Source of the DNA: Naegleria gruberi
Lineage: Eukaryota
NCBI GenBank assembly: GCA_000004985.1
Contig: GG738940.1
Strand: one strand, 5' to 3'
DNA: 39,839 nucleotides
The position numbers and the translations under genes were made by a program. Every line of letters starts with the position of its first letter. The first letter of the stretch is position 1. This document shows, piece by piece, positions 123 to 35,117 of the stretch. The notes beneath the pieces are model-generated. The model was not told the DNA's origin and did not search any database. It worked only from the letters and a program-made list of their open reading frames with translations.

Positions 123-1610
123 ATGTCAACAACAACTACCAAAGAATCTTCTACCGAAACAGCAACAACAAATAATCAGAGTCATGATTTTGCTTATCTC
201 GATTCATCGGATCAAATATTTCAACTCTTAATGGCCAGAGAAAAAACAAAACAATTAGAATACGAAATTAAATTAAAAGAATTAAATTTACTACAAAATC
301 AATCACTATTAAAAAAACGATCATTTGATACATTTAATCAAATGATGAATGGACATGATGATCAAGATCAATATAATTCAAGTAATGTATTAAAAAAACA
401 AAAGAAGGCAAATTTATGTCAAGATGNNNNNNNNNNNNNNNNNNNNNNNNNNNNNNNNNNNNNNNNNNNNNNNNNNATCATCATCATCATCGATAATATT
501 GTTACTCAAGAAGAAGAATTAGCCTCTGGATCTGTTGAAAATAATTTAATTCCTTCCTTTGATTTATTACCCTCAACTCAACATTCTATTGTACCATCAC
601 TAAAAACCAATCCACTCACATCATCACCAACAACACCAAGTAATTCAGGTTTAGTTGGTTCTTCATCTGATAATAAGAGAACCTATCAATCTATGATATC
701 GGCACTTTCCTTAACACAACATCAAGAAGCAGCTGATAATGAAGAGGCATCATCACCAACATCACCAAATAGTACAAATAATCAGTCTTTATTGGATCAA
801 TCCACTTTGGAATCTGATAAGAAAAAGACAAGAAGAACAAAAACTAAGACATCTTCATCTTCTGCTTCAAATAAGAATTGTAGAGATGATTCTTCCCTGC
901 GATTATTAACACGTAAATTTATTCATTTAATTGCTGATGCAAAAGATGGTGTTTTGGATTTAAATCATGCAGCAGAAACACTAAGTGTTCAAAAACGTAG
1001 AATTTATGATATTACCAATGTATTAGAAGGAATAGGATTAATTGAAAAGAAATCTAAGAATAATATTCAATGGCTAGGTACAGGTATTGCAGTAAATGCA
1101 CCTGAAAATTGTGAGCAAGTTAAAATCATTCAAAATGAAATTGCTCAAATTGAATATCAAGAAAGACAAGTTGATCAATTAATTTATCATGTACAGGAAT
1201 CTCTTAGATGCTTAAACGAAAGTGAACAAAATAGAAGATTAGCATTCGTTACCTATGATGATGTTTTAGATATTTCAACATTGAAGGATAGAACTGTTAT
1301 TGCTATTAAAGCTCCTTCAGGTACAACTTTAACAGTTCCTGATCCTGATGAAGGTATGGAAATGGGAAAGAGAAGATATCAAATATTTTTGAAATCACCT
1401 GCTGAACCTATTGATGTTTATCTTGTGGATAGAGATTCTGATCAACAACAACAAGCTAATCATTCTGGAGATCCAATGTTGGAAAATGTTGTGACGACAC
1501 CTGTTAATCAAACATTTGAAGAAAAACAAGCTAATCAACAAACTAATAGTGGTGATGATTTTATGTTTGAAATGGAATCTGGTGAAGGTGTATCTGATTT
1601 GTTCTTATAA
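123..1610 (+). CDS. E2F-family transcription factor (winged-helix DNA-binding domain, dimerisation coiled coil, marked box, C-terminal pocket-protein-binding motif); contains the 50-N gap at 427..476
   Basis: The motif RRIYDITNVLEGIGLIEKKSKNNIQWLG is the canonical E2F DNA-binding signature. Downstream are a leucine-zipper/coiled-coil segment, a marked-box-like segment (KRRYQIFLKSPAEPIDVYLV) and a C-terminal EGVSDLF tail resembling the Rb-binding D-x-x-DLFD motif. The ATG sits after an A-rich leader. Confidence 0.8.
   Translation: MSTTTTKESSTETATTNNQSHDFAYLDSSDQIFQLLMAREKTKQLEYEIKLKELNLLQNQSLLKKRSFDTFNQMMNGHDDQDQYNSSNVLKKQKKANLCQDXXXXXXXXXXXXXXXXXIIIIIDNIVTQEEELASGSVENNLIPSFDLLPSTQHSIVPSLKTNPLTSSPTTPSNSGLVGSSSDNKRTYQSMISALSLTQHQEAADNEEASSPTSPNSTNNQSLLDQSTLESDKKKTRRTKTKTSSSSASNKNCRDDSSLRLLTRKFIHLIADAKDGVLDLNHAAETLSVQKRRIYDITNVLEGIGLIEKKSKNNIQWLGTGIAVNAPENCEQVKIIQNEIAQIEYQERQVDQLIYHVQESLRCLNESEQNRRLAFVTYDDVLDISTLKDRTVIAIKAPSGTTLTVPDPDEGMEMGKRRYQIFLKSPAEPIDVYLVDRDSDQQQQANHSGDPMLENVVTTPVNQTFEEKQANQQTNSGDDFMFEMESGEGVSDLFL
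427..476. other. assembly gap (50 N) inside the E2F CDS
   Basis: N run in the sequence; (ATC)n triplets abut it. Confidence 0.99.
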
Positions 1611-1752
1611 AGTCTTATTTTACTACTCTACTTCTTAATAACTTTTAATGTGGATACATTGAGCGACAAATTTTCCTCAATAAAATCAAAATTAGGTATG
1701 ATATTCACTAGAACGGCCTAAATAATAATAGATTCTGAATCAAGAAGAAGAA

Positions 1753-2880
1753 ATGGCAAGACAATATTACAACTCCAATTCTTCAAATGATAGTGGATCT
1801 GGAGATGATATGATGTACATGACTGACGACGAGGACATGTTCAGAGAAATTAACTCTATGGAAGATTACTTCTCTCAAAGTCAAGAAACAAACACAAGCC
1901 CTGGACAATCCGATCAAAATTATGAAGATATCAAATGGGAGGATGACCCTAATGAAGATTTCCATGGCTTTACAACTCAATCAGATTCAGCCAATGTATT
2001 CTTATGTGATGAATGGCTAGTAGTGCTGGTAGAAGTGTTGAAAGAAGAAGTCTTTCTAAACAAATGGATTCATTTGCACCTCCTCCTCCAGTTATGAGAG
2101 GTAAGGAATCTTCATTGTATTCATTGCCTCCACCACCATCATCAGAATCAAGAAGTAGATCCTCCCTTGGTAATACTATCCTTCCTTAAGAAGGATGAAA
2201 AAGCTCCAAAAGAAAAAGAAAATGAAGAAAAGGCCAAAAACCCACTGTCCAATCAATCTCATGCGTCATTCTTTGCAAACTTTAAACCGAGCACTATGGT
2301 TACACTTAATACAAATCAGTTACCTGAAAATGTGAGACAAGTCTCTAAAGTTACTCAAGCACAACAAAAACCAACAGAAGATTCTACAAGTACAGCCGAA
2401 GACGAACTTGCTGAAACACTTTCCAAATTGAATATCAATAACACTGCCCTCACCACTAAATTTGATCCAAAGAAGATTACTTTCACTCTTGAAAAGAAAG
2501 GAAGCAAGGAAGTTTATGACTTGACCAACCCTTCCAAAGAGAAGAAGTCCATTCCATCATTCAATCCAGGAGATGTTATTCAATTTTCAGTTAAGAATAA
2601 TAATGAGAAAGAATTTATCGAAAAGACAAACCTGATTGTGGGTACAACTATTCCAATAAGGTCGATTGTCACATTCTCTGACAAGTCAACTGGCTTTACT
2701 CAAATGAAAGAAACAGTTGCCACAAGTCAAATAGTACAAATTCCAAATATAAGAGTAACTAATCCAACATGCAAGAAGAAGGCAAAGATTGTCACAATTG
2801 TATTATTTGTTAAATTTATCGAGTCCGGAAAAGAAAGAATTTTCACAACCAAGAGAAGAATAATGGTTGTTAATAAATAA
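1753..2880 (+). CDS. hypothetical acidic / Ser-Pro-rich protein. The reading frame is interrupted twice: frame 1 to frame 0 near 2010, and back to frame 1 near 2185. The C-terminal ~200-aa globular region is of unknown function.
   Basis: Long ORFs in the same frame (1753..2097 and 2167..2880) are separated by a single in-frame TGA. Between about 2013 and 2189, frame 0 reads as low-complexity coding sequence (MASSAGRSVERRSLSKQMDSFAPPPPVMRGKESSLYSLPPPPSSESRSRSSLGNTILP), while frame 1 reads as Leu-rich noise. No family assignment is possible from sequence. Confidence 0.35.
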
Positions 2881-2997
2881 TTTTCACCTTATTGATTTAA
2901 CCATGTGTTATGTAAAACGCAATCAAACGAAATTCTCCTTTGCAATGAAACAAGCTATTATCATTATATCAAGGATATATTCAAGGATTTAATAAAA

Positions 2998-3070
2998 TCC
3001 CGTGTAGTCCAATGGCTAGGATACCTGGCTTTCACCCAGGAGGTCCGGGTTCAATTCCCGGCATGGGAGG
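2998..3070 (+). tRNA. tRNA-Glu (anticodon UUC)
   Basis: The sequence is TCCCGTGTAGTCCAATGGCTAGGATACCTGGCTTTCACCCAGGAGGTCCGGGTTCAATTCCCGGCATGGGAG(G). It has a 7-bp acceptor stem with one G-U pair. The anticodon stem is CCTGG/CCAGG with loop CTTTCAC, so the anticodon is TTC. The T-arm is CCGGG-TTCAATT-CCCGG with the GTTC motif. It closely resembles eukaryotic tRNA-Glu-TTC genes. Confidence 0.85.
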
Positions 3071-3162
3071 ATGATTTTACCCTTTAAATATTATTATCAT
3101 AAATTGTTGTCTTTATTTCTCATGTTATATTCAAGGTGATTAGAGAAAAATTGTCAATTATT

Positions 3163-3615
3163 TTACAAGGATGGTTTGATGATTGGCTTTGATGGCTTCT
3201 TGCATGTCTTTCTCTTGATACAAATCTTCTTCTTAATTGACTTGCAACACTTCTTCTTTCCACCAACTAATTTGAATTTCTTACAAATCTTCTTTCCCTT
3301 TGAACGTTTCAAACACTTCTTATAATACTTCTTCTTGATACATCTTGGGGGAATGACAATTGACTTGGCACAATACTTCTTCTTATTATATTTAACACAT
3401 TTAGAAAGAGTCTTCTTGTGCTTACAGAACTTGATTGTCTTATGCTTGGCACAGAAGAATTTCTTCTTAATGAGACAACATTTCTTGACTGATTTTCTCT
3501 CCTTACAGTATTTAACCTTCTTATACTTGGCACATTTCTTTGCCCATGAAACAATCTTACACTTTTTAACATATCTACATTTGGCAACCTTCTTATTGTA
3601 GGAATCAACAGTGTA
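3163..3615 (-). CDS. Lys/Cys-rich periodic-repeat protein. This is the 3' part of a gene: the ORF is open up to the edge of the gap and ends at a TAA at 3163..3165. Its function is unknown.
   Basis: Reverse-complement translation gives 150 sense codons with no stop: YTVDSYNKKVAKCRYVKKCKIVSWAKKCAKYKKVKYCKERKSVKKCC...KKICIKRKTCKKPSKPIIKPSL*. Cys recurs every ~9 residues among Lys. The ORF track misses it because there is no in-frame start within 60 codons. The underlying DNA shows a 27-nt imperfect periodicity. Confidence 0.45.
   Translation of the reverse strand, partial: YTVDSYNKKVAKCRYVKKCKIVSWAKKCAKYKKVKYCKERKSVKKCCLIKKKFFCAKHKTIKFCKHKKTLSKCVKYNKKKYCAKSIVIPPRCIKKKYYKKCLKRSKGKKICKKFKLVGGKKKCCKSIKKKICIKRKTCKKPSKPIIKPSL
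3330..3600. repeat. imperfect tandem periodicity of ~27 nt (cttggcaca... / ttcttcttaat... units) underlying the K/C-rich ORF
   Basis: Recurring cttggcaca and ttcttctta motifs lie at multiples of 9 codons (by eye). Confidence 0.4.
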
Positions 3616-4429
3616 NNNNNNNNNNNNNNNNNNNNNNNNNNNNNNNNNNNNNNNNNNNNNNNNNNNNNNNNNNNNNNNNNNNNNNNNNNNNNNNNNNNNN
3701 NNNNNNNNNNNNNNNNNNNNNNNNNNNNNNNNNNNNNNNNNNNNNNNNNNNNNNNNNNNNNNNNNNNNNNNNNNNNNNNNNNNNNNNNNNNNNNNNNNNN
3801 NNNNNNNNNNNNNNNNNNNNNNNNNNNNNNNNNNNNNNNNNNNNNNNNNNNNNNNNNNNNNNNNNNNNNNNNNNNNNNNNNNNNNNNNNNNNNNNNNNNN
3901 NNNNNNNNNNNNNNNNNNNNNNNNNNNNNNNNNNNNNNNNNNNNNNNNNNNNNNNNNNNNNNNNNNNNNNNNNNNNNNNNNNNNNNNNNNNNNNNNNNNN
4001 NNNNNNNNNNNNNNNNNNNNNNNNNNNNNNNNNNNNNNNNNNNNNNNNNNNNNNNNNNNNNNNNNNNNNNNNNNNNNNNNNNNNNNNNNNNNNNNNNNNN
4101 NNNNNNNNNNNNNNNNNNNNNNNNNNNNNNNNNNNNNNNNNNNNNNNNNNNNNNNNNNNNNNNNNNNNNNNNNNNNNNNNNNNNNNNNNNNNNNNNNNNN
4201 NNNNNNNNNNNNNNNNNNNNNNNNNNNNNNNNNNNNNNNNNNNNNNNNNNNNNNNNNNNNNNNNNNNNNNNNNNNNNNNNNNNNNNNNNNNNNNNNNNNN
4301 NNNNNNNNNNNNNNNNNNNNNNNNNNNNNNNNNNNNNNNNNNNNNNNNNNNNNNNNNNNNNNNNNNNNNNNNNNNNNNNNNNNNNNNNNNNNNNNNNNNN
4401 NNNNNNNNNNNNNNNNNNNNNNNNNNNNN
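3616..4429. other. assembly gap (814 N)
   Basis: N run. ORFs in the track that span it (3605..5152 on minus, 3611..4447 on plus) are artefacts of translating N. Confidence 0.99.
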
Positions 4430-5455
4430 TTTCGTATAGTTCAATAGAGTTTCTGCTGCCTTATTCACATACTTTATAAGTTTATCATTGGCAGTCATGA
4501 CAACAATTGCATCAACCATTCCTTCAAGAATTTGAATAAGTTCACTACTTTCCTCATTAGAATCTCTTAAACTTGAAGAGATTGTTGGTGGTGATTTGTT
4601 TGTTGGTAAAGAAATATTTGAAGAAATGTAAAGTTTCAGATAACGTTGTCCTGAATTTCTGTAATTTGCCAAACAAAGTTTAAAATCATCTTCCTTCTTC
4701 AATGTAATAATATCATCATCTTCATCCTTATATTTCAATTGAATTTGATTGGTAGAGGAAAGAATTGGTTTTCTAGATAAAACTTCCATTTTAACTTTTT
4801 GTAAAGTTAACTCATCCTCAGGAGAGAATCTTAAAATTGTTGCATCTGATTGATTTTCAAGAGAATCATAACATTTAATCATTATATCACTAGTAGGAAT
4901 ATTACTATTCGAATTAAAACTATGAACACTATCATTATCATTCATTGTTGATTGATAGGAAGTCATTGACCTAGTTTCCAGTGATGGTTTTCCTTGCATT
5001 ATTGTTCCTTGATAACTTGATTGATTTTCCATTGTTGTATTGCTGGTAGAGGAGGGTGGATCATCTTCCTCTGTGAGAAATTCATTGTGTTGAACTAGGT
5101 AGTCTAATTGTTTTTTCAATCTTTTACGATGACCTAATTTGGATATTTTCAAGTCTTTGACTAAATCATCATCAGTTAATTCTAATAATTCTGCACCTGT
5201 AATATCCCTATATATATATATATATAAAATATTGAAATTGGAAGAATAAACGAAAGAAGAATTAACCTACATTTTTTCAAATTCCTTGCAATAGTCTTGC
5301 AAATCAATTGATTTTAACCACAGAGACACATCTTTAGCACTCCAATCACAAATAGCCTTTTCCAATAACTTTTTCCTAATTTTAATCTTTTCATCGTCGT
5401 CAGTGGTGGATGTTGAATTTTTGTTACCCTTGAAGAAACCAGCAAGTTTTTTCAT
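4430..5455 (-). CDS. SAM-PB1-PAS domain protein, 5' portion. Exon 1 is 5455..5271, the intron is 5270..5208 (63 nt, GT..AG), and exon 2 runs from 5207 down into the gap.
   Basis: The SAM domain is split by the intron: ...WSAKDVSLWLKSIDLQDYCKEFEK | MDITGAELLELTDDDLVKDLKISKLGHRKRLKKQLDYL. The PB1 domain is ILRFSPEDELTLQKVKMEVL...QLKYKDEDDDIITLKKEDDF (type-I/II PB1 signature YKDEDGD). A PAS-like start (ILEGMVDAIVVMTANDKLIKYVNKAAETLL) then runs into the gap. Confidence 0.6.
5209..5226. repeat. (TA)9 microsatellite inside the intron of the SAM-PB1-PAS gene
   Basis: tatatatatatatatata read directly. Confidence 0.9.
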
Positions 5456-6014
5456 CTTTTTGAATGTTGAATGATGTGGAGAAGTAATGTTGTTTTTTTT
5501 TAATGTTTTTTTTGAAGTCTATAAAATTCTCCATTAATGGATGCCTTCAAAAATGCCGTCAAATGTCAATGTTAGAATATGTCCAAATTAGTGTTTTATA
5601 ATAAGAACTAGCTAGATGCAACAGTTTGGAAATAACAACATCTAAATTCTCAAAGTGGAAAGAGGTAATTGTTTTTAAACATTTCCTTACTGATATTTGG
5701 TTCATTATAGTATTTCGAAAACAATTACTCAATACAACTTATTAACAAAGATTATCAGTGCACTTTTTTATCTAAAATATTTAACACCTGCATTATGATA
5801 TGCAATACGATGATGTCCTATGAAGATCGAATAAGAACATCACAAAAGGTCCATTTTATTTTCGCGCTCTTTTTTGTATGAAGATTTAACCTCAATGGAC
5901 GTTAAAATATCAGAAAAAAAAGCCTTACAGAAGAGGGAAGTTTTGAGGCTCAAGCATATCTGTAATCATACTACAGCCTTATTAAAATTGTTTTGTGTAT
6001 AGACGAGAGAAGAA

Positions 6015-9589: not shown

Positions 9590-11304
9590 ATGAATCAACA
9601 TCCCACTTCATTTCCACCTTCTCAACAAGAACAAGAATATCGGAATGGTGATGATCATAACCAAAAACAAATGTTGAGCACGAAGGCTTGTTTATCATGT
9701 AAAAATTCACATAAAAAGGTAAGAAGAAGAAATTAAAAGGAGATTGCAATCATTTGATGATCATCAAGTGCGATAAATTAATTCCTGCTTGTTCTAGATG
9801 TAAACAAAAAGGCTTTAAATGTGAATATAATTATGAAACTCCATCTTTAAAAAAGAAAAATGTTCGAATGAATCCTCTGCATAATAACAGTGCTAATGAA
9901 AATGTTAGACAAATTAAAAAGAATACAATTCAGACGTATGCTGAAATAATTTGTATTGGTTCTCCTGCATTTTCAATGGAACAAATGGAAGAGATGATAT
10001 TTATGGATACAAGTACACTTATTAATGAAAGAAAGGATATTTTGGCATATTTATTATCTGTTCAAGGATTGTGTGAGCAGAGGTTTGGATTTTTGGATTT
10101 TTCTGAAAAATCAATGCAAAGAGCAAGAGAAGTGCTGAAACACGTTTATGATCAAAACGAAAATCAATATGTGGCATGCACCTATAATCATATGGCATTC
10201 TATTTTGCAGGTACAATGGACAGGAAACGAGCTAGATTTTATTTGAGTTGTAGTGAAAACTTTATTTCGGAATTGGATATCTATGCAACCCAAAGAAATT
10301 TATCAAAACAAGAGGCTCTACAAGAAAGGCAACATTCTTTCGGATCTAATGTTGTAATGAGTGTGAGAGATTTTATGATATTTAAAAATGTTGTTGAAAC
10401 TCTTGCAAGTCAATCTAATCCTCTACCAGTTTCAGATATTCTAGAAAATACGTTTTATCAAATTGTTGGCATTGAAATTCCAGAAGAATTGAAAAAATAT
10501 GTAGATTTCAACTTGATCAATATTTATGATATTAATACATTGGAGGAGAGAATTAGAGGGTTTGAAGCTGTATTCAATATGATTCATGTTTCATTGAAAC
10601 AATCTGTTAGACCGAGTATGTGCCAAAAAATGCACGAATTTGTACAATTATTTATGCTCAATGGTGTGAGAATTTTAAAAATCTCAATAGCCAATATACC
10701 AATACCTCTCAGTAAGGAACACGAACCCTGGATTAAATTACTGGAACAAAGTGCTCTCGCGCTGACTGAAGCATCACAAACAGATTTTTTCTCTTTCATC
10801 TCACCTCTAATGATACCCTATTATCTTGCCAGTGCTAATGTAAATTTGGAGATTCTTAAATCAATTGTGGAGGGTAAACGACAAAATAATCAACCATTTC
10901 CAAGAGTTTACAGATTTGGAATTCATGAAATATTTCCAGAAGAAATTCTTACAGACACAGTTGACTATTTTCAAGTTGTCAAGAAGGATTTAAGAGCACT
11001 ACAGGTATTATCCAGTCGATACAGATACATTTCTGTCTATGTGGAAAACACTGAAAAATTATTAATACAAGCTGAAACTCAATTCGAGCATAACGTGGAA
11101 TTCACTTCTAATTCTGAAAGTAATTCATTTGATAGAACATTCTCCTACTACAAACAAATGAGACAATTCCTATTGAAAATTAATGATAAGATTGATAAAT
11201 TCCTACCTCAAGAAGAAGAACTTTTAGAATTTCTCAATGATAACGTTGATCCTTTCCTCTGTCAGGATATGGACATTTCAGAATTTAACAGTTATTTCCT
11301 GTAA
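9590..11304 (+). CDS. Zn(2)-Cys(6) binuclear-cluster (fungal-type) transcription factor. Exon 1 is 9590..9718, the intron is 9719..9768 (50 nt, GT..AG), and exon 2 is 9769..11304.
   Basis: The ATG at 9590 opens MNQHPTSFPPSQQEQEYRNGDDHNQKQMLSTKACLSCKNSHKK | CDKLIPACSRCKQKGFKC. After splicing, the cysteines follow C-x2-C-x6-C-x6-C-x2-C-x6-C, the canonical Zn2Cys6 spacing. The 9754 ORF in the track is exon 2 only. Confidence 0.7.
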
Positions 11305-11986: not shown

Positions 11987-13249
11987 TTAGTGGAACAACA
12001 TTTTAGAGATCAAATCAGGACCTAATTCTTCATAATCAGCACGTCTAATCCAACGATCTTGGAATGAAGACAAACTTGAAAGAATTGAACCACCAATCCA
12101 AACTGAATATTTACGTTCAGGAGGAGCAATAATTCGTAATCTAACAGCACCACCTACCATACGTGTCATTTCACGTGTTAAACGTTCTTGAATACCCTTA
12201 ATAAGAGTATTACCACCAGAGAGAATGACATTCTTAAACATATTCTTTCTGATATCCATATTACAATGTTGAATTGAGGTATTTAACAATTCGTGAATAC
12301 CCAATTCTTCTGAACCAATCATATTTGGTTGGAACAAAATTTCTGCAGCTTGGAAACGTTCACAATCAATATTAATAAATGTACCATCTGGTAATTGGAA
12401 TTGATTTCTGAATTCATTCTTCTTTGATTCTTGGAATAATTTCAAAGTGTGATCATAATTCAAAGCAACATAACATGAAGCTTCCTTAACATCACGAACG
12501 AAATCTAATGAAGCACTATTTTGTGTAAAATCATATCCAGAATGTTGTAACATTAATTTTGTTAAATGATTAGTAATATCACAACCTGCCAATTCACTTT
12601 TTAACATGGCATATGTTTGAGGATAACCTTCAAACACTGGAACAACGTGTGTCGATCCATCACCTGAATCTAAAACAATACCATCTAAATCACCAGTTGC
12701 ATATATTGAGAGCAATCCTTGAATTGCAAAGAATAATGAATGTGATTGGAATTTTTCAAATAATAATTGAATATACTGTTGACGATGAGTGACTGATGTC
12801 AATGGTTGTTCTGTCAATAAAATTGGGTGATCTTTTGGATTAACACGTAAATGGAAATGATAAATATGTTCTAATAACAATTCAATATCATCCCAATTTT
12901 GAACACCTTTACCTCCACGATTAATTGGATGAGATAATTCACAAATACCCTTTCTTTGATGGGCTTCCAATCCAACAAAATATGATTTTGCTTCATTCAT
13001 TTTCTCTCTTGCTCCAAATAATTTACGAGTGTCGACATGACTTTTTGGTTTTCCAATAATTGTTGGGAAAACTGCTTTTGGAAATTGTTCTCCTGCCAAT
13101 CCTGCTTTAACAAAACTACTTCCCAAATCACAAACAATGGCTCCTTGATGGTCACGAATTAAATTCATGGTATTGATGTGTCCGGTATGAGCAACAATGG
13201 TATCATCATTGATAGCTTGTGCTCTCTTATTATATGGTATATAGGACAT
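11987..13249 (-). CDS. actin-related protein (Arp1/Arp2-like; actin fold)
   Basis: IVCDLGSSFVKAGLAGEQFPKAVFPTIIGKPK corresponds to the actin N-terminal phosphate-1 region. The sequence also has LLTEQPL, IVLDSGDGSTHVVPVFEGY, SVWIGGSILSSLSSFQDRWI and a GPDLISKMLFH tail. I estimate roughly 40% identity to actin by eye, and there is an N-terminal extension. Confidence 0.75.
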   Translation of the reverse strand: MSYIPYNKRAQAINDDTIVAHTGHINTMNLIRDHQGAIVCDLGSSFVKAGLAGEQFPKAVFPTIIGKPKSHVDTRKLFGAREKMNEAKSYFVGLEAHQRKGICELSHPINRGGKGVQNWDDIELLLEHIYHFHLRVNPKDHPILLTEQPLTSVTHRQQYIQLLFEKFQSHSLFFAIQGLLSIYATGDLDGIVLDSGDGSTHVVPVFEGYPQTYAMLKSELAGCDITNHLTKLMLQHSGYDFTQNSASLDFVRDVKEASCYVALNYDHTLKLFQESKKNEFRNQFQLPDGTFINIDCERFQAAEILFQPNMIGSEELGIHELLNTSIQHCNMDIRKNMFKNVILSGGNTLIKGIQERLTREMTRMVGGAVRLRIIAPPERKYSVWIGGSILSSLSSFQDRWIRRADYEELGPDLISKMLFH

Positions 13250-14888: not shown

Positions 14889-14948
14889 CTCTCTCCGCNN
14901 NNNNNNNNNNNNNNNNNNNNNNNNNNNNNNNNNNNNNNNNNNNNNNNN
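14889..14948. other. assembly gap (60 N) in the divergent intergenic region between the TLC and formin genes
   Basis: N run. Confidence 0.99.
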
Positions 14949-18100: not shown

Positions 18101-20352
18101 TCCAAGCCAATAAGGACAACAATGCTCAACCAAATGATGTTAAAGTTGAACCAGTTCAACAAATTATTCCAATTGATACACAAATTTTCACAAAAGAAAT
18201 TGATGAACTGAAATTACTCGTTAAAGAAAAAGAGGATTCCGTAGAGAATGTAAATAAGGAGAATGACAAGCTCAAGGATCAGTTGAAAGAATTGTTAATG
18301 GAATTGGAAGAACACAGAAGAATGTCCTTCAAACAATCCTTACAAACTACTACAGGAACAGTCAGATCTAATTCTAGCAATACTTCGAGCATCTCTGAGG
18401 TCAGCAATCAGAATAGTGCTGTCATTGATCTAGAACCTTCTTTCACAACCGGTGCTGCTGGTTCTGGATTTGTACCTCCACCTCCAGGAGCTAGTGGTAG
18501 TGGATTTGTACCTCCACCTCCAACTGGAGCCTCTTCTGGTGGTTCCAGTCCTAATATTCCTCAAGTTCCAAACATGACTGGAGCTGGTTTACCTCCTCCA
18601 CCTCCTTCTGGTATTGTATCAATGTCAAAGAAGAATCCACTACCAGAATTATCAAAGAGAGCTCCAAAGAGTGCAGTTAAAAACTTTTATGGTGTTGCCA
18701 TCAATAGACATAAGGTTTCACAAACATGTTGGGTTAAAGGTGGTATTGCAGCTGAGTCTAAGGAAGTTCAAATTGATGAAGATGAATTGGAAGACTTGTT
18801 CTCAAATGCTCCAAAAAAGAACAACAAAGACGAGGAAAAGAAGCGTAAGGAATTGATATCATTTGTTGAACCACAAAAAGGAAGCGCTCTCTCAATTTTA
18901 TTGGGATATATTCGATTGGATTATTCTGAGATTAAGAGAGCCATTTTAGAAATGGATGAGGAAGTTTTGACTGCTCAAGTTGTTGATACTCTAAAGGATA
19001 AGATGGCAACTGCTGATGAATTGTCACAAATTGAGGCATACAATGGCGATGCAGATTTATTATCACCTGTAGATAAGTTTTATTTGGCCCTCAAGGATGT
19101 TCCAAGATTGGAAGGAAGATTATTCTGTTGGGCTTCAGATTTAAATTCCAAACAGAAGTATCAGAAGTTTTATCTGATTTGGAAACAGTTTTAACTGCTT
19201 CCACTCAAGTAGTTCAAAGTAGTAGATTTAAGAGATTGTTAGCTGTTATTTTGGCTATTGCTAACTTTTTGAATGCAAACTCTTCATCAAAGAAGAACGC
19301 CTATGGGTTCACATTGAACAGTTTGTCCAAGTTGCAAGACACCAAGACATCAGATAACAAGTCATCTCTCTTACAATATATCAGTTCATATTGTGAAAAA
19401 TCATTCCCTGATCTATTGAATATTAAGGAAGATTTTTCATCATTGGAGGATGCTACTCGTGTTTCCCTCGTTGAATCAGATAATGAATACAGAAAGTTAA
19501 AACAAGGATTTGAAACTATGGAAAGAGAATTACAGAATCCACAATGGGAATCCACAACTTTCAAGAATAACATGAGTGAATTCATGGAAAGTGCCACAAG
19601 ATTTTTAGATGATATTGATTCAATCTTATCAAAGATTGATGAGAAGTTAAAACAAATTGCTGAAGATTTTGCTGAGGACGAAAAGACAGTTTGTAAGAAT
19701 CCAAATGAACTCTTCCAAACCCTCAACAATTTCCTCAATAACTTTAGAAATGGTTATGAAGAACTTGTGAAACAGAGAGAAGCTGACGAAAAGAAGAAAC
19801 TCAAACAAAAAATCATGGAAGAAAAGAAGAAACAATCGGCTGCCTTCTTTTCCAATCATACCAACATGAGAAGTGAGNNNNNNNNNNNNNNNNNNNNNNN
19901 NNNNNNNNNNNNNNNNNNNNNNNNNNNGAAGCAACGATGCTCTCAAATCATCAACCATTACCAATGTACAGCAACAACCAGCAACTACGAGTCCACAAGA
20001 TTCAATTATTCCATCTTCACCACCTCCTCCACCTCCTGTTTCCTCTTCTTTAGAATCATCATCATCATCTACAAGTGAAATTGAATCATTCAATCCTCCA
20101 ACAATCAATACAGAACCAGTGTCATCGACAATTAACACAGAAACGTTATCAACAAGTACTCCAATTGAAGCTGAAACATCTGTAACAACACCATCATCAC
20201 AAGAAACCTCCTCTTCAGATGTAATGTCAGAGGCTGAACATTTAGAACTGTTGACCAAGATGAGAGACAGAAAGAAGAGTATTATGAGTGGATCTGCATT
20301 CAGAGAAAGAAGAATGACAAGATTTGCTATGGAAAGCAATGAACAACAATAA
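15184..20352 (+). CDS. diaphanous-related formin with an S/T-rich N-terminus, GBD/FH3, coiled coil, FH1 poly-Pro, FH2 and C-terminal DAD. The frame changes at ~19129 (GGG run), and the 50-N gap at 19878..19927 also changes the frame.
   Basis: The armadillo-like GBD/FH3 region reads KWCTKFSDQEGGAKYLGQIITTM...ALEILSLICTYNEQGFW. The FH1 region has GFVPPPPGASGSGFVPPPPTG...GLPPPPPSG. The FH2 region has KNFYGVAINRHKVSQTCWVK...LEGRLFCW, and continues in the -1 frame as GFRFKFQTEVSEV...NANSSSKKNAYGFTLNSLSKLQDTKTSDNKSSLL. After the gap, the adjacent frame carries a DAD-like tail: MSEAEHLELLTKMRDRKKSIMSGSAFRERRMTR (compare mDia ...MDSLLEAL..SGAAFRRKR). Confidence 0.8.
19878..19927. other. assembly gap (50 N) inside the formin 3' region
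   Basis: N run. Confidence 0.99.
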
Positions 20353-27522: not shown

Positions 27523-29592
27523 TTACTGATCTAATAAAAATTCATCTAAGAATTCTTCTAATCTAGTGTGAAGGTCATTGTGAGGAGAGTCCAACATTGG
27601 TGGAGCTGAACTCACAAAGGATGTATCAATTTCATGAAGGAATTTCTCAAGTTCTAGACAAACTTCTGAAGGTTGAGCTGAAGCTGCCTTATATTTGCTT
27701 CGCATAACATTGAATGCTCTGAGATCTTTCCTCAGTAATGTAAGGTAATCAGTATTGTTATGTATCAGCGATCCAGTATGTCTGAGAGTTTTGGCTTTTT
27801 CTAAATGGACTTTTGCAGCTGCATTTAAAAAGGCGATAAGCTCCAAAGGAAAAACAGGGAACCATGGATTTTCAGTGAGTGCTGTAATTTGAATAGCACT
27901 TTGGTCTATCATTCCAGAAATTACAACAGAATCCCGTTGTGGTGATTTGGATAGAATTGAAATTCTAGCTCCATCTAGAATAAATTGATAAACTAGTTCT
28001 ATAATTTCCAAATAAAATTTGGAGCTTTCTGATGCAGAAATATTAGATCGTTCTATTGCCTTTGATTGATTGAGAATCATTTCTACCAAGCTCCAAATTT
28101 CAAAACAATTTTCAGCTGTAATTTCCGTATTGAGAATATTAATCCACTCAGCAGGGAATGGCTTTCTATGTAAAAATTCAAAAATGGCTGGCAGCCTCTT
28201 TAGAATATCTTCCACTGTAAGATCTTTCAGTTCCCTATTATCTATAAATATTATTCTGTCAAAATAAAATATCCAACCCTGTAAATTTTGTTGATATTCA
28301 GTCATAGAATCAATATCACAATCCTGTGGGAATAGTTTCTTCTCGAAAAAGGTCAAAATTTGCAAGTAGAATTTACAATTTTCAAATCTTCCTGACCAAA
28401 GTTCATATACAATAAGCTTACAATATGCCCCAGCAACCATAAAACTAGAAAAATTATCAAACACTCTAGACAGGCACTTTTTGGCCTTTTCAGCTGATTT
28501 TTCTGCTTGTTCATGAAGTCCGTATTGACATTCACAGAGTGCCTTGATAGAAAAATAGATTGAAGGCATTTCAAAATCGACTAGAGTATTGAGATCTTGA
28601 TTCTCATCAAATTTTCCAGCAAAATTTTCCAGCTCCTGCCTTGACAATAGTGGATAACCTCCAGCTACAACATCATAATAGAAATCAATCATGTTAGGTT
28701 TAGAAAGAGAAGATGTGAGAGCTGTTGATTCACTTGGTGAAGTTTTGTTAGTGGTAGTATTAGTCTTTGGTTTTGAATATGGTTCATATTGAGTTTCAGT
28801 TCTCTTCTTTTGTACAATTGATGGTGGTTGAATGTTTGGTTTCTTTTTCAAATTCCTCTTTGATTCTCTATAGTGACAATTAATTCCTCGTTGTTGGCAT
28901 GAATAACAAGATGGTTTTCTCTTATCACATTTTCTATTTGAATTATTAATTGAAAAAAGATTAGAAGAATACACGTACCTATGTTGTGATCTACAATGGT
29001 CGCATGCAATAGGAGAAAACTCTTCTGTTGACTGCTCCACAACTGTTGTACTATTAGATTTTGAATTATTACTACTATCACTACTATTTGGACTAGTATT
29101 AGAGAATATTATTGTTTCGGAATTTGTTTTTCCCAACAAAATATCACTATTTGAATCAACTATTGCCGTATTAGCTCCTCCTACTACTGTATGCATCAAA
29201 TTATTATTACTACTATTGTCAAGACTTGGATTAATTGCAGCAAAATTAAATAATTCTAAAAAGGTGCTTGGCATCATGCCTCCTCCTCCCTGCATCATCA
29301 TCATCATGTTATGTAATTGAATATCCATCTCTGAATTACTATTTTGTGTCGAAGACGAACCAACACCATGATTAAAGGCTATTGCTGGTCCCGATTCGGC
29401 TTGAAAATATGAAGAAGGAGCAGTTGAATTCATTGCCGAAGAAGAAGAAGACAGAGGCGAACCAAACGGAAACAATGAAAATCCATGTTGTTCTTGCTGT
29501 TGTTGTTGAGTATTCTGCTGCTGATACATGAAACTATTAAAATTATTATTAAAATTATTTGATGAATTCGGAGAGTTGAAATCTTGGTTCAT
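27523..29592 (-). CDS. Zn(2)-Cys(6) binuclear-cluster transcription factor, Q/N-rich; paralog of the 9590..11304 gene. It contains an in-frame 45-nt GT..AG intron at 28978..28934.
   Basis: The cluster reads ...IACDHCRSQHR[YVYSSNLFSINNSNR]KCDKRKPSCYSCQQRGINC. The bracketed 15 codons are gtacgtg...aatag. Removing them restores the C-x2-C-x6-C-x6-C-x2-C-x6-C spacing. Poly-Q and Asn-rich tracts flank the cluster. Confidence 0.65.
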   Translation of the reverse strand: MNQDFNSPNSSNNFNNNFNSFMYQQQNTQQQQQEQHGFSLFPFGSPLSSSSSAMNSTAPSSYFQAESGPAIAFNHGVGSSSTQNSNSEMDIQLHNMMMMMQGGGGMMPSTFLELFNFAAINPSLDNSSNNNLMHTVVGGANTAIVDSNSDILLGKTNSETIIFSNTSPNSSDSSNNSKSNSTTVVEQSTEEFSPIACDHCRSQHRYVYSSNLFSINNSNRKCDKRKPSCYSCQQRGINCHYRESKRNLKKKPNIQPPSIVQKKRTETQYEPYSKPKTNTTTNKTSPSESTALTSSLSKPNMIDFYYDVVAGGYPLLSRQELENFAGKFDENQDLNTLVDFEMPSIYFSIKALCECQYGLHEQAEKSAEKAKKCLSRVFDNFSSFMVAGAYCKLIVYELWSGRFENCKFYLQILTFFEKKLFPQDCDIDSMTEYQQNLQGWIFYFDRIIFIDNRELKDLTVEDILKRLPAIFEFLHRKPFPAEWINILNTEITAENCFEIWSLVEMILNQSKAIERSNISASESSKFYLEIIELVYQFILDGARISILSKSPQRDSVVISGMIDQSAIQITALTENPWFPVFPLELIAFLNAAAKVHLEKAKTLRHTGSLIHNNTDYLTLLRKDLRAFNVMRSKYKAASAQPSEVCLELEKFLHEIDTSFVSSAPPMLDSPHNDLHTRLEEFLDEFLLDQ

Positions 29593-34298: not shown

Positions 34299-35117
34299 TT
34301 AAGAATCACGTTTCGAATAAATATTANNNNNNNNNNNNNNNNNNNNNNNNNNNNNNNNNNNNNNNNNNNNNNNNNNAACTGCAATATGATCCTTTTGCTT
34401 GTTTGTGCAAAGAAATATGTCCACAAATTTTGGAACGTCTTTGAATACTTTGATTTCTGTAATTTTCTTCCAATCTCTAGAAATCTTTCGAATTATAATT
34501 CTCTGACTAGAGGGATAATGCTGCAAGATAAAAATTCGACCACTTTCATCAACATCAATGGCTCTAATTTTTGAATCAGAATTTGCTAACAATATCTCAC
34601 TCTCATTTTCGGTAAATGTTGAACCATTTCTGTTAAATGAAACTAGGTAGGTTGAATTTCTGATTTGTTTTGTTGAAAATAGTTTTCCATCAAAGGCTGT
34701 TGCTTTCTGAAGTTTCACCCTTTCGTTTGTCGATAATTCATTCGAATGAAGATTTTCATCATAAGCTGTAATTGTATCATCTCCTTTTCCATCAAATAAA
34801 TGTAAAACTTCATCATTGCTAAACAATACTAATGATGATGCTTTTCTACAATTTGTGTTTGATTTTGAAATTGGAATTAGACTTTTTCTATTGAAAAGTT
34901 CTATACAGCATTCACCAGATGTGATGCCTGCTGTGATGAAGATGTGTGTCTGTGTGGATTGAAGTCCTGTGATTTGGTTGTCAAGAATTATTTCATCAGA
35001 CAAAGTCCACTTGTGGAGCTTTTGCGTTTTCTTTGCAGTTTTGGCTTGGTTGAGCAATAAAATAATCCCACAACAAATTAGAATAATCGCAGCTATTAGT
35101 GCAATATTGTCTTCCAT
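34299..35117 (-). CDS. hypothetical type-II (signal-anchor) membrane protein. The C-terminal end is interrupted by the 50-N gap at 34327..34376.
   Basis: The N-terminus reads MEDNIALIAAIILICCGIILLLNQ, followed by a ~240-aa lumenal/extracellular domain with N-glycosylation sequons. The ORF continuity across the gap is uncertain. Confidence 0.45.
   Translation of the reverse strand: MEDNIALIAAIILICCGIILLLNQAKTAKKTQKLHKWTLSDEIILDNQITGLQSTQTHIFITAGITSGECCIELFNRKSLIPISKSNTNCRKASSLVLFSNDEVLHLFDGKGDDTITAYDENLHSNELSTNERVKLQKATAFDGKLFSTKQIRNSTYLVSFNRNGSTFTENESEILLANSDSKIRAIDVDESGRIFILQHYPSSQRIIIRKISRDWKKITEIKVFKDVPKFVDIFLCTNKQKDHIAVXXXXXXXXXXXXXXXXXNIYSKRDS
34303..34316. promoter_or_regulatory. AATCACGTTTCG element ~25-40 bp upstream of the ATG (34277) of the minus-strand gene 33462..34277
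   Basis: The 12-mer aatcacgtttcg is repeated exactly at 35139..35150, at the equivalent position upstream of the next gene. Confidence 0.35.
34327..34376. other. assembly gap (50 N)
   Basis: N run. Confidence 0.99.

What the first reader, a model, noticed from the sequence alone, without database searches (positions are those of the whole stretch)
3163..3615. Unannotated Lys/Cys-rich 9-residue periodic ORF abutting the large assembly gap
On the minus strand, 150 codons read without a stop. They give a highly basic protein in which Cys recurs about every 9 residues between Lys clusters (K-x-x-K-K-x-K-x-C units, several CC doublets). The underlying DNA has a ~27-nt imperfect period. The ORF track missed it because there is no in-frame start nearby. 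It must be a downstream exon or the C-terminal part of a gene whose 5' end lies in or beyond the 814-N gap. That gene could even be the SAM-PB1-PAS gene on the same strand. Such K/C-periodic sequences resemble metal-binding, nucleic-acid-binding or structural (protamine- or keratin-associated-like) proteins rather than any enzyme family, and the repeat may be why the assembly broke here. The facing plus-strand ORF 3335..3601 is the Leu/Phe-rich mirror image and is not coding.
Basis: seen in the sequence. Interest (0 to 1): 0.6.

Follow-up and report, generated by a model that had tools for sequence, protein, structure and literature searches.

The report
Secreted Lys/Cys-repeat gene, mis-fused in annotation
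The flagged stretch is the real, conserved C-terminal half of a secreted, very basic, cysteine-periodic protein found only in Naegleria amoebae; its front half is lost in the assembly gap, and the public annotation wrongly splices it onto the neighbouring signalling gene.

Summary
Window 3615..3166 (minus strand) is 150 open codons followed by TAA. It has 37% Lys and 11% Cys, and Cys recurs every 9 residues (shuffle p<=1e-5). The window is an entire 39,839-bp Naegleria gruberi scaffold. The ORF is genuine coding sequence. It is 51% identical to the C-terminal module of N. gruberi NAEGRDRAFT_67458. It is 80% identical to a full-length orthologue on an SRA-derived contig (dN/dS 0.08; 16 of 17 Cys conserved). 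Every full-length relative (N. gruberi, N. fowleri, N. lovaniensis, environmental sequences) starts with its own Met and signal peptide. About 180 codons of this gene are therefore missing in the gap. The ORF is not unannotated: public model NAEGRDRAFT_76199 splices the SAM-PB1-PAS gene onto it across the gap. A 97.5%-identical metagenome contig shows that gene running 222 more codons to its own stop, so the fusion is an artefact and the gap is longer than 814 nt. The family has no Pfam, PDB or literature match, and AlphaFold models are poor. The signal peptide argues against a protamine-, keratin- or metallothionein-like role. My best inference is a secreted, disulfide-cross-linked polycationic wall, matrix or surface-binding protein, but the function is untested. 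Interest is modest.

The parts
3166..3615 (-). C-terminal 150 codons of a secreted Lys/Cys-periodic repeat protein. It begins with the inter-module linker 'YTVDSY' and continues through the whole C-terminal module.
   Evidence: The frame is open. It is 51% identical to residues 167-274 of N. gruberi NAEGRDRAFT_67458 (E=4e-29). It is 80% aa and 81% nt identical to the full-length orthologue on L007, with dN/dS 0.078 and 16 of 17 Cys conserved. It is collinear with the C-modules of the N. fowleri and N. lovaniensis members.
3163..3165 (-). TAA stop codon of the K/C gene.
3575..3615 (-). In-frame, conserved coding sequence (YTVDSYNKKVAKCR) that the public model NAEGRDRAFT_76199 treats as the 3' end of an intron (acceptor AG at 3576..3575).
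   Evidence: Mapping of P0013 onto the window. These residues are conserved in P0001, P0002, P0003 and L007.
3616..4429 (.). Assembly gap (814 N). It must hold about 180 codons (540 nt) of the K/C gene's 5' part (Met, signal peptide, N-module), an intergenic spacer, and the last 669 nt plus stop of the SAM-PB1-PAS-PAS gene. The true length is therefore above about 1.3 kb.
   Evidence: L005 runs 748 nt into the gap from 4430. Window residue 1 aligns to residue 181 of the L007 orthologue.
4430..4472 (-). PAS-domain coding sequence (..YVNKAAETLLNYTK) of the upstream neighbour gene, treated as the 5' end of an intron (donor GTATGT at 4472) by the public model.
   Evidence: One search gives the coordinates. 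The Pfam PAS_8 match runs to the gap edge. P0025, P0026 and P0027 continue in frame.
4473..5455 (-). SAM-PB1-PAS gene (the N-terminal part of NAEGRDRAFT_76199). It is a separate upstream gene and not part of the K/C gene.
   Evidence: tblastn of P0013 residues 1-311. Pfam finds PB1 and PAS, and precomputed SAM domains are listed.
2998..3069 (+). tRNA-Glu(UUC), the downstream neighbour, convergent with the K/C gene and 94 nt beyond its stop. Context only.
   Evidence: ARAGORN.

Best explanation
Window 3615..3163 (minus strand) is the 3' half of an independent N. gruberi gene for a protein of about 330 residues. The layout is a cleavable signal peptide, a short Asp-x-Tyr/Pro linker, an N-terminal Lys/Cys module, a second 'TVDSY' linker, and the C-terminal Lys/Cys module seen here. 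Each module is a run of roughly 9-residue units with consensus [K/V/L/A]-K-[Y/H/F/K]-K-x-x-K-[Y/F/K/V]-C, paired into 18-residue super-units.

Shown: it is coding, it is under purifying selection, it belongs to a Naegleria-restricted orphan family whose full-length members all carry signal peptides, and it is not the tail of the SAM-PB1-PAS gene.

Inferred: the protein enters the secretory pathway. There the regularly spaced Cys form disulfides within or between chains, and the dense Lys surface with fixed aromatic positions binds a polyanionic or glycan partner. The most likely role is a structural, cross-linked component of an extracellular layer such as the cyst wall, surface coat or adhesive.

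My confidence is about 0.95 for gene identity, about 0.85 for secretion, and about 0.35 for the wall/matrix role. The overall figure given refers to identity and secretion.
For: Scaffold identity: the window proteins are exact matches to N. gruberi EFC36122, EFC36127 and EFC36131, each recorded on a contig of 39,839 bp.

Homology: P0003 (NAEGRDRAFT_67458) matches at 51% identity, E=4e-29. A profile search of 1.84 billion representative proteins returns only 12 hits: N. gruberi (3 loci), N. fowleri FDP41_004030, N. lovaniensis C9374_009239, and environmental fragments.

Orthologue: L007 carries a full-length copy with Met and signal peptide. It is 80% aa identical, dN/dS is 0.078, and 16 of 17 Cys are conserved.

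Signal peptides with AxA-type cleavage sites are present in P0001, P0002, P0003, P0014, P0016, P0017, P0018, P0019, P0020, P0021, P0024 and L007.

Separate gene: L005 is 97.5% identical to window 5719..4430 and continues 669 nt to a TAA TAA stop. Orthologues P0026 and P0027 also end after two PAS domains with no K/C tail.

Family-wide periodicity: a Cys gap of 9 accounts for 106 of 245 gaps.

Codon use: AAG is 77% of Lys codons here against 42% in other window genes. TTC is 4 of 4 Phe codons, and there is no ATA, GTA or GTG. The N. lovaniensis family gene and the N. fowleri RPS24e gene show the same AAG bias.

There is no C-terminal hydrophobic tail or KDEL motif.
Against: The signal peptide and N-module of this particular copy cannot be seen because they lie in the gap. 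The nominal 814-nt gap is too short for what must be in it (748 nt from L005, plus 540 nt, plus a spacer). Either the gap size is underestimated or this copy is 5'-truncated. No expression, localisation or biochemical data were found for any family member. AlphaFold models are unreliable (pLDDT 39.5 and 49.5), so the disulfide-ladder picture is only an inference. The mature Cys count appears odd in some members. The AAG preference might reflect avoidance of poly-A tracts rather than high expression.
Confidence: 0.8

Rival explanations
1. It is a cationic antimicrobial or prey-killing protein, or a polyprotein precursor of such peptides, delivered to phagosomes or secreted to kill the bacteria Naegleria feeds on.
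For: The family combines a signal peptide, extreme positive charge (pI about 10) and many Cys, as in defensin-like peptides. It is restricted to bacterivorous soil and water amoebae. The modules are separated by conserved linkers, as in multipeptide precursors. Codon bias is compatible with high expression.
Against: Modules of 135-165 residues are far larger than known Cys-stabilised AMPs. There is no similarity to defensins, saposin-like naegleriapores or any Pfam or PDB family. No amphipathic segregation is evident. Dibasic sites occur everywhere, so no defined processing sites can be recognised.
Confidence: 0.25
2. This copy is a 5'-truncated, dead duplicate (pseudogene fragment). Only the C-module was inserted between the E2F and PAS genes, which would explain why a gap of about 814 nt seems too small for a full gene.
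For: The nominal gap is 814 nt, of which L005 already accounts for 748 nt. The block from 1611 to the gap is absent from the syntenic locus of a related species, L006, which suggests a recent insertion.
Against: The frame is intact over 150 codons. Sixteen of 17 Cys are conserved and dN/dS is 0.078 against the L007 orthologue. Codon bias is strong. The conserved linker 'YTVDSY' runs right up to the gap edge, which implies the reading frame continues upstream. Scaffold gap sizes are only estimates.
Confidence: 0.08
3. The public gene model is right: one SAM-PB1-PAS protein acquires a K/C tail by splicing 4473 to 3574 across an 898-nt intron.
For: Canonical GTATGT...AG boundaries exist, and the joined frame is open. 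This is model EFC36128.1.
Against: The 'intron' contains conserved coding sequence on both flanks. L005 shows 222 further PAS-gene codons and a stop inside it. The splice would cut the first PAS domain and would start the K/C module 14 residues into a conserved segment. No relative in any species has this architecture. In L006 the PAS gene is followed directly by E2F.
Confidence: 0.02
4. It is an intracellular nucleic-acid-condensing (protamine-like), keratin-associated-like or metal-binding protein.
For: Very high Lys and Cys content.
Against: All full-length relatives carry N-terminal signal peptides. The basic residue is Lys rather than Arg. There are no CxC/CxxC clusters and no CCxPx pentads; the Cys spacing is 9. 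Aromatic residues are abundant, unlike metallothioneins.
Confidence: 0.03
5. It is a chance open frame in AAG-rich simple sequence and is not a gene.
For: Three of the six frames are open over about 90-150 codons.
Against: The homologues match at E=4e-29, and the public fusion protein P0013, which contains this ORF, scores 3.8e-42 in the profile search. dN/dS is 0.078. The Cys spacing gives p<=1e-5.
Confidence: 0.01

Closest known systems
N. gruberi NAEGRDRAFT_67458 (XP_002677436.1, D2VF04), NAEGRDRAFT_66117 (XP_002678603.1), N. fowleri FDP41_004030 and N. lovaniensis C9374_009239. All are annotated only as 'predicted/hypothetical protein'.
   Same: They are true homologues. They share the 9-residue K/C units, the D-S/T/P-Y linkers, a collinear C-terminal module with landmarks such as VKFCK, IPPRC and GGKK.C, and a signal peptide.
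   Different: The window copy is a distinct paralogue, 51% identical to 67458. It is the most Lys-rich member (37% K against 18-25%). Its 5' half is missing in the gap, and it is mis-fused in the annotation.
Cyst-wall and eggshell-type secreted Cys-rich repeat proteins (Entamoeba Jacob, Acanthamoeba Leo/Luke/Jonah lectins, Cryptosporidium COWPs)
   Same: The general design is shared: signal peptide, tandem Cys-containing modules with fixed aromatic positions separated by low-complexity linkers, and lineage-restricted families in cyst-forming protists. This rests on my own background knowledge and on the abstract of PMC6541295 (listed).
   Different: There is no detectable sequence or profile similarity. 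Those families are not polycationic and have 6-8-Cys domains rather than one Cys per 9 residues. Glycan binding and wall localisation are untested here.
Naegleria/Willaertia antistasin-like secreted Cys-rich repeat proteins (PF02822; PMC12482156)
   Same: Secreted, repeated Cys-rich modules in the same genus.
   Different: They have a different motif (C..C...C..G......GC..C.C, about 26-30 aa). Pfam PF02822 does not hit any K/C family member even at E<=1, and none of the six family accessions or IDs searched (RefSeq XP numbers and locus number 67458) occurs in that paper's supplementary files, Table S3 included.
Cationic Cys-stabilised antimicrobial peptides (defensins, snakins)
   Same: Secreted, strongly basic and disulfide-rich.
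   Different: Those peptides are 30-70 residues with 6-12 irregularly spaced Cys. This family has modules of at least 135 residues with strict 9-residue periodicity and no sequence similarity to them.
Protamines, keratin-associated proteins and metallothioneins
   Same: Compositional resemblance only (basic and/or Cys-rich).
   Different: Those proteins are intracellular, Arg-rich or built on CC/CxC motifs, and lack signal peptides. Relatives of this ORF are secretory.

Membership tests
Naegleria K/C-periodic secreted repeat family (unnamed; NAEGRDRAFT_67458 / 66117, FDP41_004030, C9374_009239) | Significant sequence similarity to family members over the C-terminal module | tested here: met
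   BLASTP gives 51% identity, E=4e-29, to P0003. The public fusion protein P0013, which contains this ORF, scores 3.8e-42 in the profile search. The ORF is 80% identical to the L007 orthologue.
Naegleria K/C-periodic secreted repeat family | One Cys about every 9 residues between Lys-rich stretches | tested here: met
   Seven of 16 gaps are exactly 9 and eleven are 8-10, p about 1e-5. Family-wide, a gap of 9 accounts for 106 of 245 gaps.
Naegleria K/C-periodic secreted repeat family | D-S/T-Y linker preceding the C-module | tested here: met
   'YTVDSY' sits at 3615..3598 and aligns to the linker in P0001, P0002, P0003 and L007.
Naegleria K/C-periodic secreted repeat family | Own start codon, N-terminal signal peptide and N-terminal module | not testable with these tools
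   This part lies in the 814-N gap. It is present in the orthologue L007 and in every other full-length member.
SAM-PB1-PAS protein (public model NAEGRDRAFT_76199) | The K/C segment is a genuine exon of the PAS gene | tested here: not met
   L005 continues the PAS gene for 222 codons to its own stop. Orthologues P0026 and P0027 lack a K/C tail. The 'intron' flanks are conserved coding sequence.
Protamines / sperm nuclear basic proteins | Nuclear, Arg-rich, no signal peptide | tested here: not met
   The ORF is 37% Lys against 3% Arg. Relatives have signal peptides.
Keratin-associated proteins | Intracellular, with CCxPx or Gly/Tyr repeats | tested here: not met
   There are only two CC doublets and no pentapeptide repeat.
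Metallothioneins | Short proteins with CxC/CxxC/CC clusters and few aromatic residues | tested here: not met
   The Cys spacing is 9. Tyr, Phe and Trp together are about 9%.
Antistasin-like domain (PF02822) | Match to the Pfam antistasin model | tested here: not met
   No Pfam hit at E<=1 for seven full-length or partial family proteins, and none at E<=0.1 for the window ORF.
Cys-stabilised cationic antimicrobial peptides | Microbicidal activity; small mature peptide with a defined disulfide array | not testable with these tools
   No sequence similarity. The size does not fit. Activity needs an experiment.
Protist cyst-wall lectins/structural proteins | Encystation-induced expression, wall localisation and glycan binding | not testable with these tools
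   No expression or localisation data were found.

The most novel reading that the evidence does not exclude
The family is a Naegleria-specific, structurally new class of secreted polycationic proteins. One disulfide-forming Cys per 9-residue unit would build a regular ladder or hairpin stack, an as yet undescribed fold. This fold would form the proteinaceous, cross-linked scaffold of the cyst wall or surface coat, or else a giant defensin-like weapon against prey. Since a member is present in N. fowleri, it could be a genus-specific marker or target.
Probability: 0.3. Interest if true: 0.5.

Novelty: new variant of a known kind. Interest (0 to 1): 0.3.

Why it matters
There are three practical results. 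First, a public N. gruberi gene model (NAEGRDRAFT_76199 / XP_002668872.1) is a chimera of two unrelated genes, which pollutes domain-architecture databases with a false SAM-PB1-PAS plus K/C-tail architecture. Second, the scaffold gap is under-sized and can be partly filled from existing metagenome contigs. Third, a small orphan family of at least three N. gruberi paralogues, with members in N. fowleri and N. lovaniensis, is now defined by its architecture and repeat consensus. Biologically, nothing is known about the protein components of Naegleria's extracellular layers. A secreted, highly expressed-looking, disulfide-periodic polycation is a reasonable candidate for such a component and could serve as a genus-specific marker. 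It remains an uncharacterised orphan, and no mechanism is demonstrated.

Tried and rejected
- Pfam gave no hit on the ORF or on seven family proteins.
- A PDB sequence profile search gave no hit.
- Two AlphaFold2 runs (4- and 12-sequence alignments) gave pLDDT 39.5 and 49.5, too low to interpret. Foldseek against PDB with the better model gave 0 hits.
- A word-index search with the ORF alone found only two soil fragments and missed even the identical public protein, probably because of low complexity.
- Two JGI metagenome scans (protein pattern and degenerate DNA pattern) and one IMG/VR scan found no relatives. One attempt failed because the alignment was too diverse.
- Exact-protein look-ups for P0001, P0002 and P0003 returned nothing on record.
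- Literature searches by locus tag and accession returned 0 papers. Supplement searches in three Naegleria omics papers found nothing.
- The Naegleria antistasin-like family was checked and is unrelated.
- Tandem-repeat and direct-repeat finders show no DNA repeat that would explain the assembly break.
- No further copy of the family exists elsewhere in the window.
- The gene neighbourhoods of the N. fowleri and N. lovaniensis members are unrelated to each other and give no functional hint.

Full report
WHAT IS THERE. The minus-strand frame 3615..3166 is open for 150 codons and ends in TAA at 3165..3163. The peptide has 56 Lys, 17 Cys, 9 Tyr and only 2 acidic residues, with a pI of about 10.3. 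Successive Cys residues are 9 apart in 7 of 16 intervals and 8-10 apart in 11 of 16. Neither count was reached in more than 1 of 100,000 residue shuffles. An iid model gives about 1e-6 for such an open frame.

At the DNA level there is no tandem repeat. TRF finds none, and the repeat finder finds only 12-29-nt matches, nearly all 69-92% identical. Against codon shuffles, self-identity is weak at lag 27 (z=1.6) and clear at lags 54 (z=3.9) and 81 (z=3.2). The periodicity is therefore an old, protein-level one with an 18-residue super-unit.

WHERE THE WINDOW COMES FROM. Several window ORFs are letter-for-letter identical to Naegleria gruberi proteins EFC36122, EFC36127 and EFC36131. Each is recorded on a contig of exactly 39,839 bp, so the window is one whole scaffold of the N. 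gruberi draft genome. Its neighbours are:
- an E2F gene at 123-1610 (+);
- an unknown gene at about 1753-2880 (+);
- tRNA-Glu(UUC) at 2998-3069 (+);
- the K/C ORF (-);
- the 814-N gap at 3616-4429;
- a SAM-PB1-PAS gene (-) starting at the other gap edge.

IT IS A REAL CODING SEQUENCE OF AN ORPHAN FAMILY. A word-index search with the ORF found two soil-catalogue fragments, P0001 and P0002. Both begin with a signal peptide and contain 'KYTVDSY..KKCRY[IV]KKCKIVS.AKKC', which is 76-80% identical to the start of the ORF. Searching with P0001 found N. gruberi NAEGRDRAFT_67458 (P0003, 301 aa, 'predicted protein'). Residues 167-274 of P0003 align to the ORF at 51% identity, E=4e-29.

A profile of these sequences, run against 1.84 billion representative proteins, returned only 12 hits:
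- three N. gruberi loci (67458, 66117 and the public model on this scaffold);
- N. fowleri FDP41_004030;
- N. lovaniensis C9374_009239;
- environmental fragments.

No Pfam model hits any member, even at E<=1 for the seven relatives and E<=0.1 for the ORF itself. No PDB sequence matches, and no paper mentions any of the identifiers.

The best relative is L007, a 1,343-bp contig assembled from SRA run SRR32051688. It carries the full-length orthologue in this order: Met, signal peptide (MKQNLIIAIAITLLMAIVSLQG|ATDSY), N-module, 'KYTTVIDSYNKK', C-module, stop. Over 142 aligned codons it is 80% identical to the window ORF. Sixteen of 17 Cys are conserved, dN=0.107 and dS=1.37, giving dN/dS=0.078. 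This is strong purifying selection on exactly this frame.

Only the minus frame shows homology. The plus-strand Leu/Phe ORF (3335-3601) and the Arg/Ser frame (3309-3608, minus) are by-products of AAG/AAA-rich coding. Codon use also differs from other window genes. AAG is 77% of Lys codons here against 42% elsewhere, TTC is 4 of 4 Phe codons, ATC is 42% against 13%, and there is no ATA, GTA or GTG. The same AAG preference is seen in the N. lovaniensis family gene (71% against 25-46% in its neighbours) and in the N. fowleri ribosomal protein S24e gene (85%). This is consistent with high expression, although avoidance of poly-A tracts is an alternative explanation.

ARCHITECTURE. All full-length members share the same layout:
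- a signal peptide with a small-x-small cleavage site;
- a linker rich in D-[STKP]-Y and Pro;
- an N-terminal K/C module;
- a second D-S-Y linker;
- a well-conserved C-terminal module with landmarks VK[FY]CK, CKHKKT..C, IPPRC and KG.K[IV]CKK[FY]..GGKK.C;
- a variable basic tail.

Across the family, 106 of 245 Cys-Cys gaps are exactly 9. The 9-mer consensus is [K/V/L/A]-K-[Y/H/F/K]-K-x-x-K-[K/Y/F/V]-C. Window residue 1 corresponds to residue 181 of the L007 orthologue. About 180 codons (540 nt) of this gene are therefore missing in the gap.

THE ANNOTATION PROBLEM. The ORF is not unannotated. P0013 (EFC36128.1 / XP_002668872.1 / NAEGRDRAFT_76199, 443 aa, on this scaffold) reads SAM-PB1-'...MTANDKLIKYV' and then 'KKCKIVSWAKKC...KPSL'. 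Mapped onto the window, that model uses an 898-nt 'intron' from 4472 to 3575, made of the 814 N plus 43 and 41 nt of flank, with GTATGT...AG ends.

The model is wrong for four reasons.
(i) Both flanks inside the 'intron' are in-frame conserved coding sequence. One is the PAS motif 'NKAAETLLNYTK' (Pfam PAS_8 runs to the gap edge). The other is the family linker 'YTVDSYNKKVAKCR'.
(ii) L005, a 2,042-bp ENA metagenome contig, is 97.5% identical to window 5719..4430. It continues 748 nt into the gap. In it the PAS gene runs 222 more codons through two complete PAS domains to TAA TAA, followed by 79 nt of non-coding sequence.
(iii) The more distant orthologues P0026 and P0027 end the same way, with no K/C tail.
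(iv) Every K/C relative is a stand-alone secretory protein. The N. fowleri and N. lovaniensis genes sit in unrelated neighbourhoods.

It follows that the gap must hold 748 nt, a spacer and about 540 nt, or more than about 1.3 kb in total. Either the 814-N estimate is too small, or, less likely, this copy is truncated.

LOCUS HISTORY. In L006, a related species from a JGI metagenome, the PAS gene is followed after 106 nt by the convergent E2F orthologue, which is 69% identical to window 672-1598. This confirms that the scaffold join across the gap is sound. It also shows that the block between E2F and the PAS gene in N. gruberi is lineage-specific. That block holds the unknown gene at 1753-2880, tRNA-Glu and the K/C gene.

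HOW IT PROBABLY WORKS. What is shown is that this is a conserved, selected secretory-type protein family with one Cys per 9 residues, fixed aromatic positions and a dense Lys surface. What follows is inferred. After signal-peptide cleavage the protein folds or cross-links through disulfides in the oxidising secretory pathway, and it presents a polycationic surface that binds polyanions or glycans. With Tyr/Pro/Asp linkers between modules, the design most resembles structural or cross-linked components of extracellular layers, such as a cyst wall, surface coat or adhesive. I put this at about 0.35.

The main rival is a cationic antimicrobial or prey-killing protein or precursor, at about 0.25. 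No expression or localisation data exist to decide between them. AlphaFold2 gave pLDDT 39.5 (4 sequences) and 49.5 (12 sequences), with only tentative beta-hairpins, and Foldseek found nothing. No structural claim is made.

Protamine-, keratin-associated- and metallothionein-like readings are rejected on three grounds: the signal peptides, Lys rather than Arg as the basic residue, and the lack of CxC/CxxC/CCxPx motifs. The Naegleria antistasin-like secreted Cys-rich proteins described in PMC12482156 are a different family.

VERDICT. The link to the SAM-PB1-PAS gene, which the public annotation also makes, is an artefact. The protein belongs to a small, uncharacterised, Naegleria-restricted family of secreted K/C-periodic repeat proteins. 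Novelty: it is a new variant of the broad class of secreted Cys-rich repeat proteins. The sequences are already in databases but are unnamed and unstudied. Interest is modest (0.3).

Noticed in passing
L007:632-634 (codon 115 of the orthologue): The only full-length orthologue has one in-frame TGA ('HSYKIN*CSKKKSW'), where P0001 has Thr. The gene caller split it into two genes (290-634 and 668-1264). It could be a sequencing or assembly error, a polymorphism, or a nonsense mutation. It is not at a Cys position, so selenocysteine seems unlikely.
   Followed up: partly
window 1611-3615 compared with L006:1937-2043: In a related species the PAS gene and the E2F gene are convergent neighbours only 106 nt apart. 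In N. gruberi a block has been inserted between them, holding an unknown gene (ORFs 1753-2097 and 2167-2880, no Pfam hit), tRNA-Glu(UUC) and the K/C gene.
   Followed up: partly
window 3616-4429 (gap); L005:1295-2042: ENA metagenome assembly ERZ929261 (run ERR1078381, PRJEB11402) contains contigs from an N. gruberi-like strain that are 97.5-98.8% identical to this scaffold (L001, L005). L005 fills 748 nt of the 814-N gap, so the stated gap size must be an underestimate.
   Followed up: yes
window 11987-13249 (-): The actin-family ORF is 420 aa as an uninterrupted ORF, and that exact product was called on the metagenome contig L001. The public N. gruberi protein in the same 90% cluster is 393 aa (EFC36130.1), which suggests a different start or an intron call in the public model.
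   Followed up: no
window 9754-11304 (+) and 27523-29592 (-): Two ORFs carry the 'fungal' Zn(2)-Cys(6) binuclear cluster domain (PF00172) in this heterolobosean scaffold.
   Followed up: no
window 427-476, 14899-14948, 19878-19927, 34327-34376: Four 50-N placeholder gaps. The first interrupts the E2F coding sequence. The one at 19878 lies beyond the point where the formin FH2 match breaks off, about halfway through the domain (the ORF ends at 19194).
   Followed up: no
P0002 compared with P0001 (soil catalogue, SRR3989338): P0002 looks like P0001 with the interior of the N-module deleted between two similar 'KKVCD.Y' units. This is probably a collapse in protein-level assembly of a repetitive sequence rather than a real short isoform.
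   Followed up: no
window 3112-3117 (-): An AATAAA hexamer lies 46 nt downstream of the K/C stop codon, before the convergent tRNA-Glu. In 30%-GC DNA this is weak evidence for a poly(A) signal.
   Followed up: no
P0018 C-terminus (N. fowleri FDP41_004030): The N. fowleri member ends in a tandem 'IDTYKPA IDSYKPT IDSYKPK IDSYKP' tail. This is a Tyr/Lys/Pro heptad that looks like an amplified version of the family's D-S-Y linkers. It is reminiscent of adhesive or extensin-like repeats, but its function is unknown.
   Followed up: no
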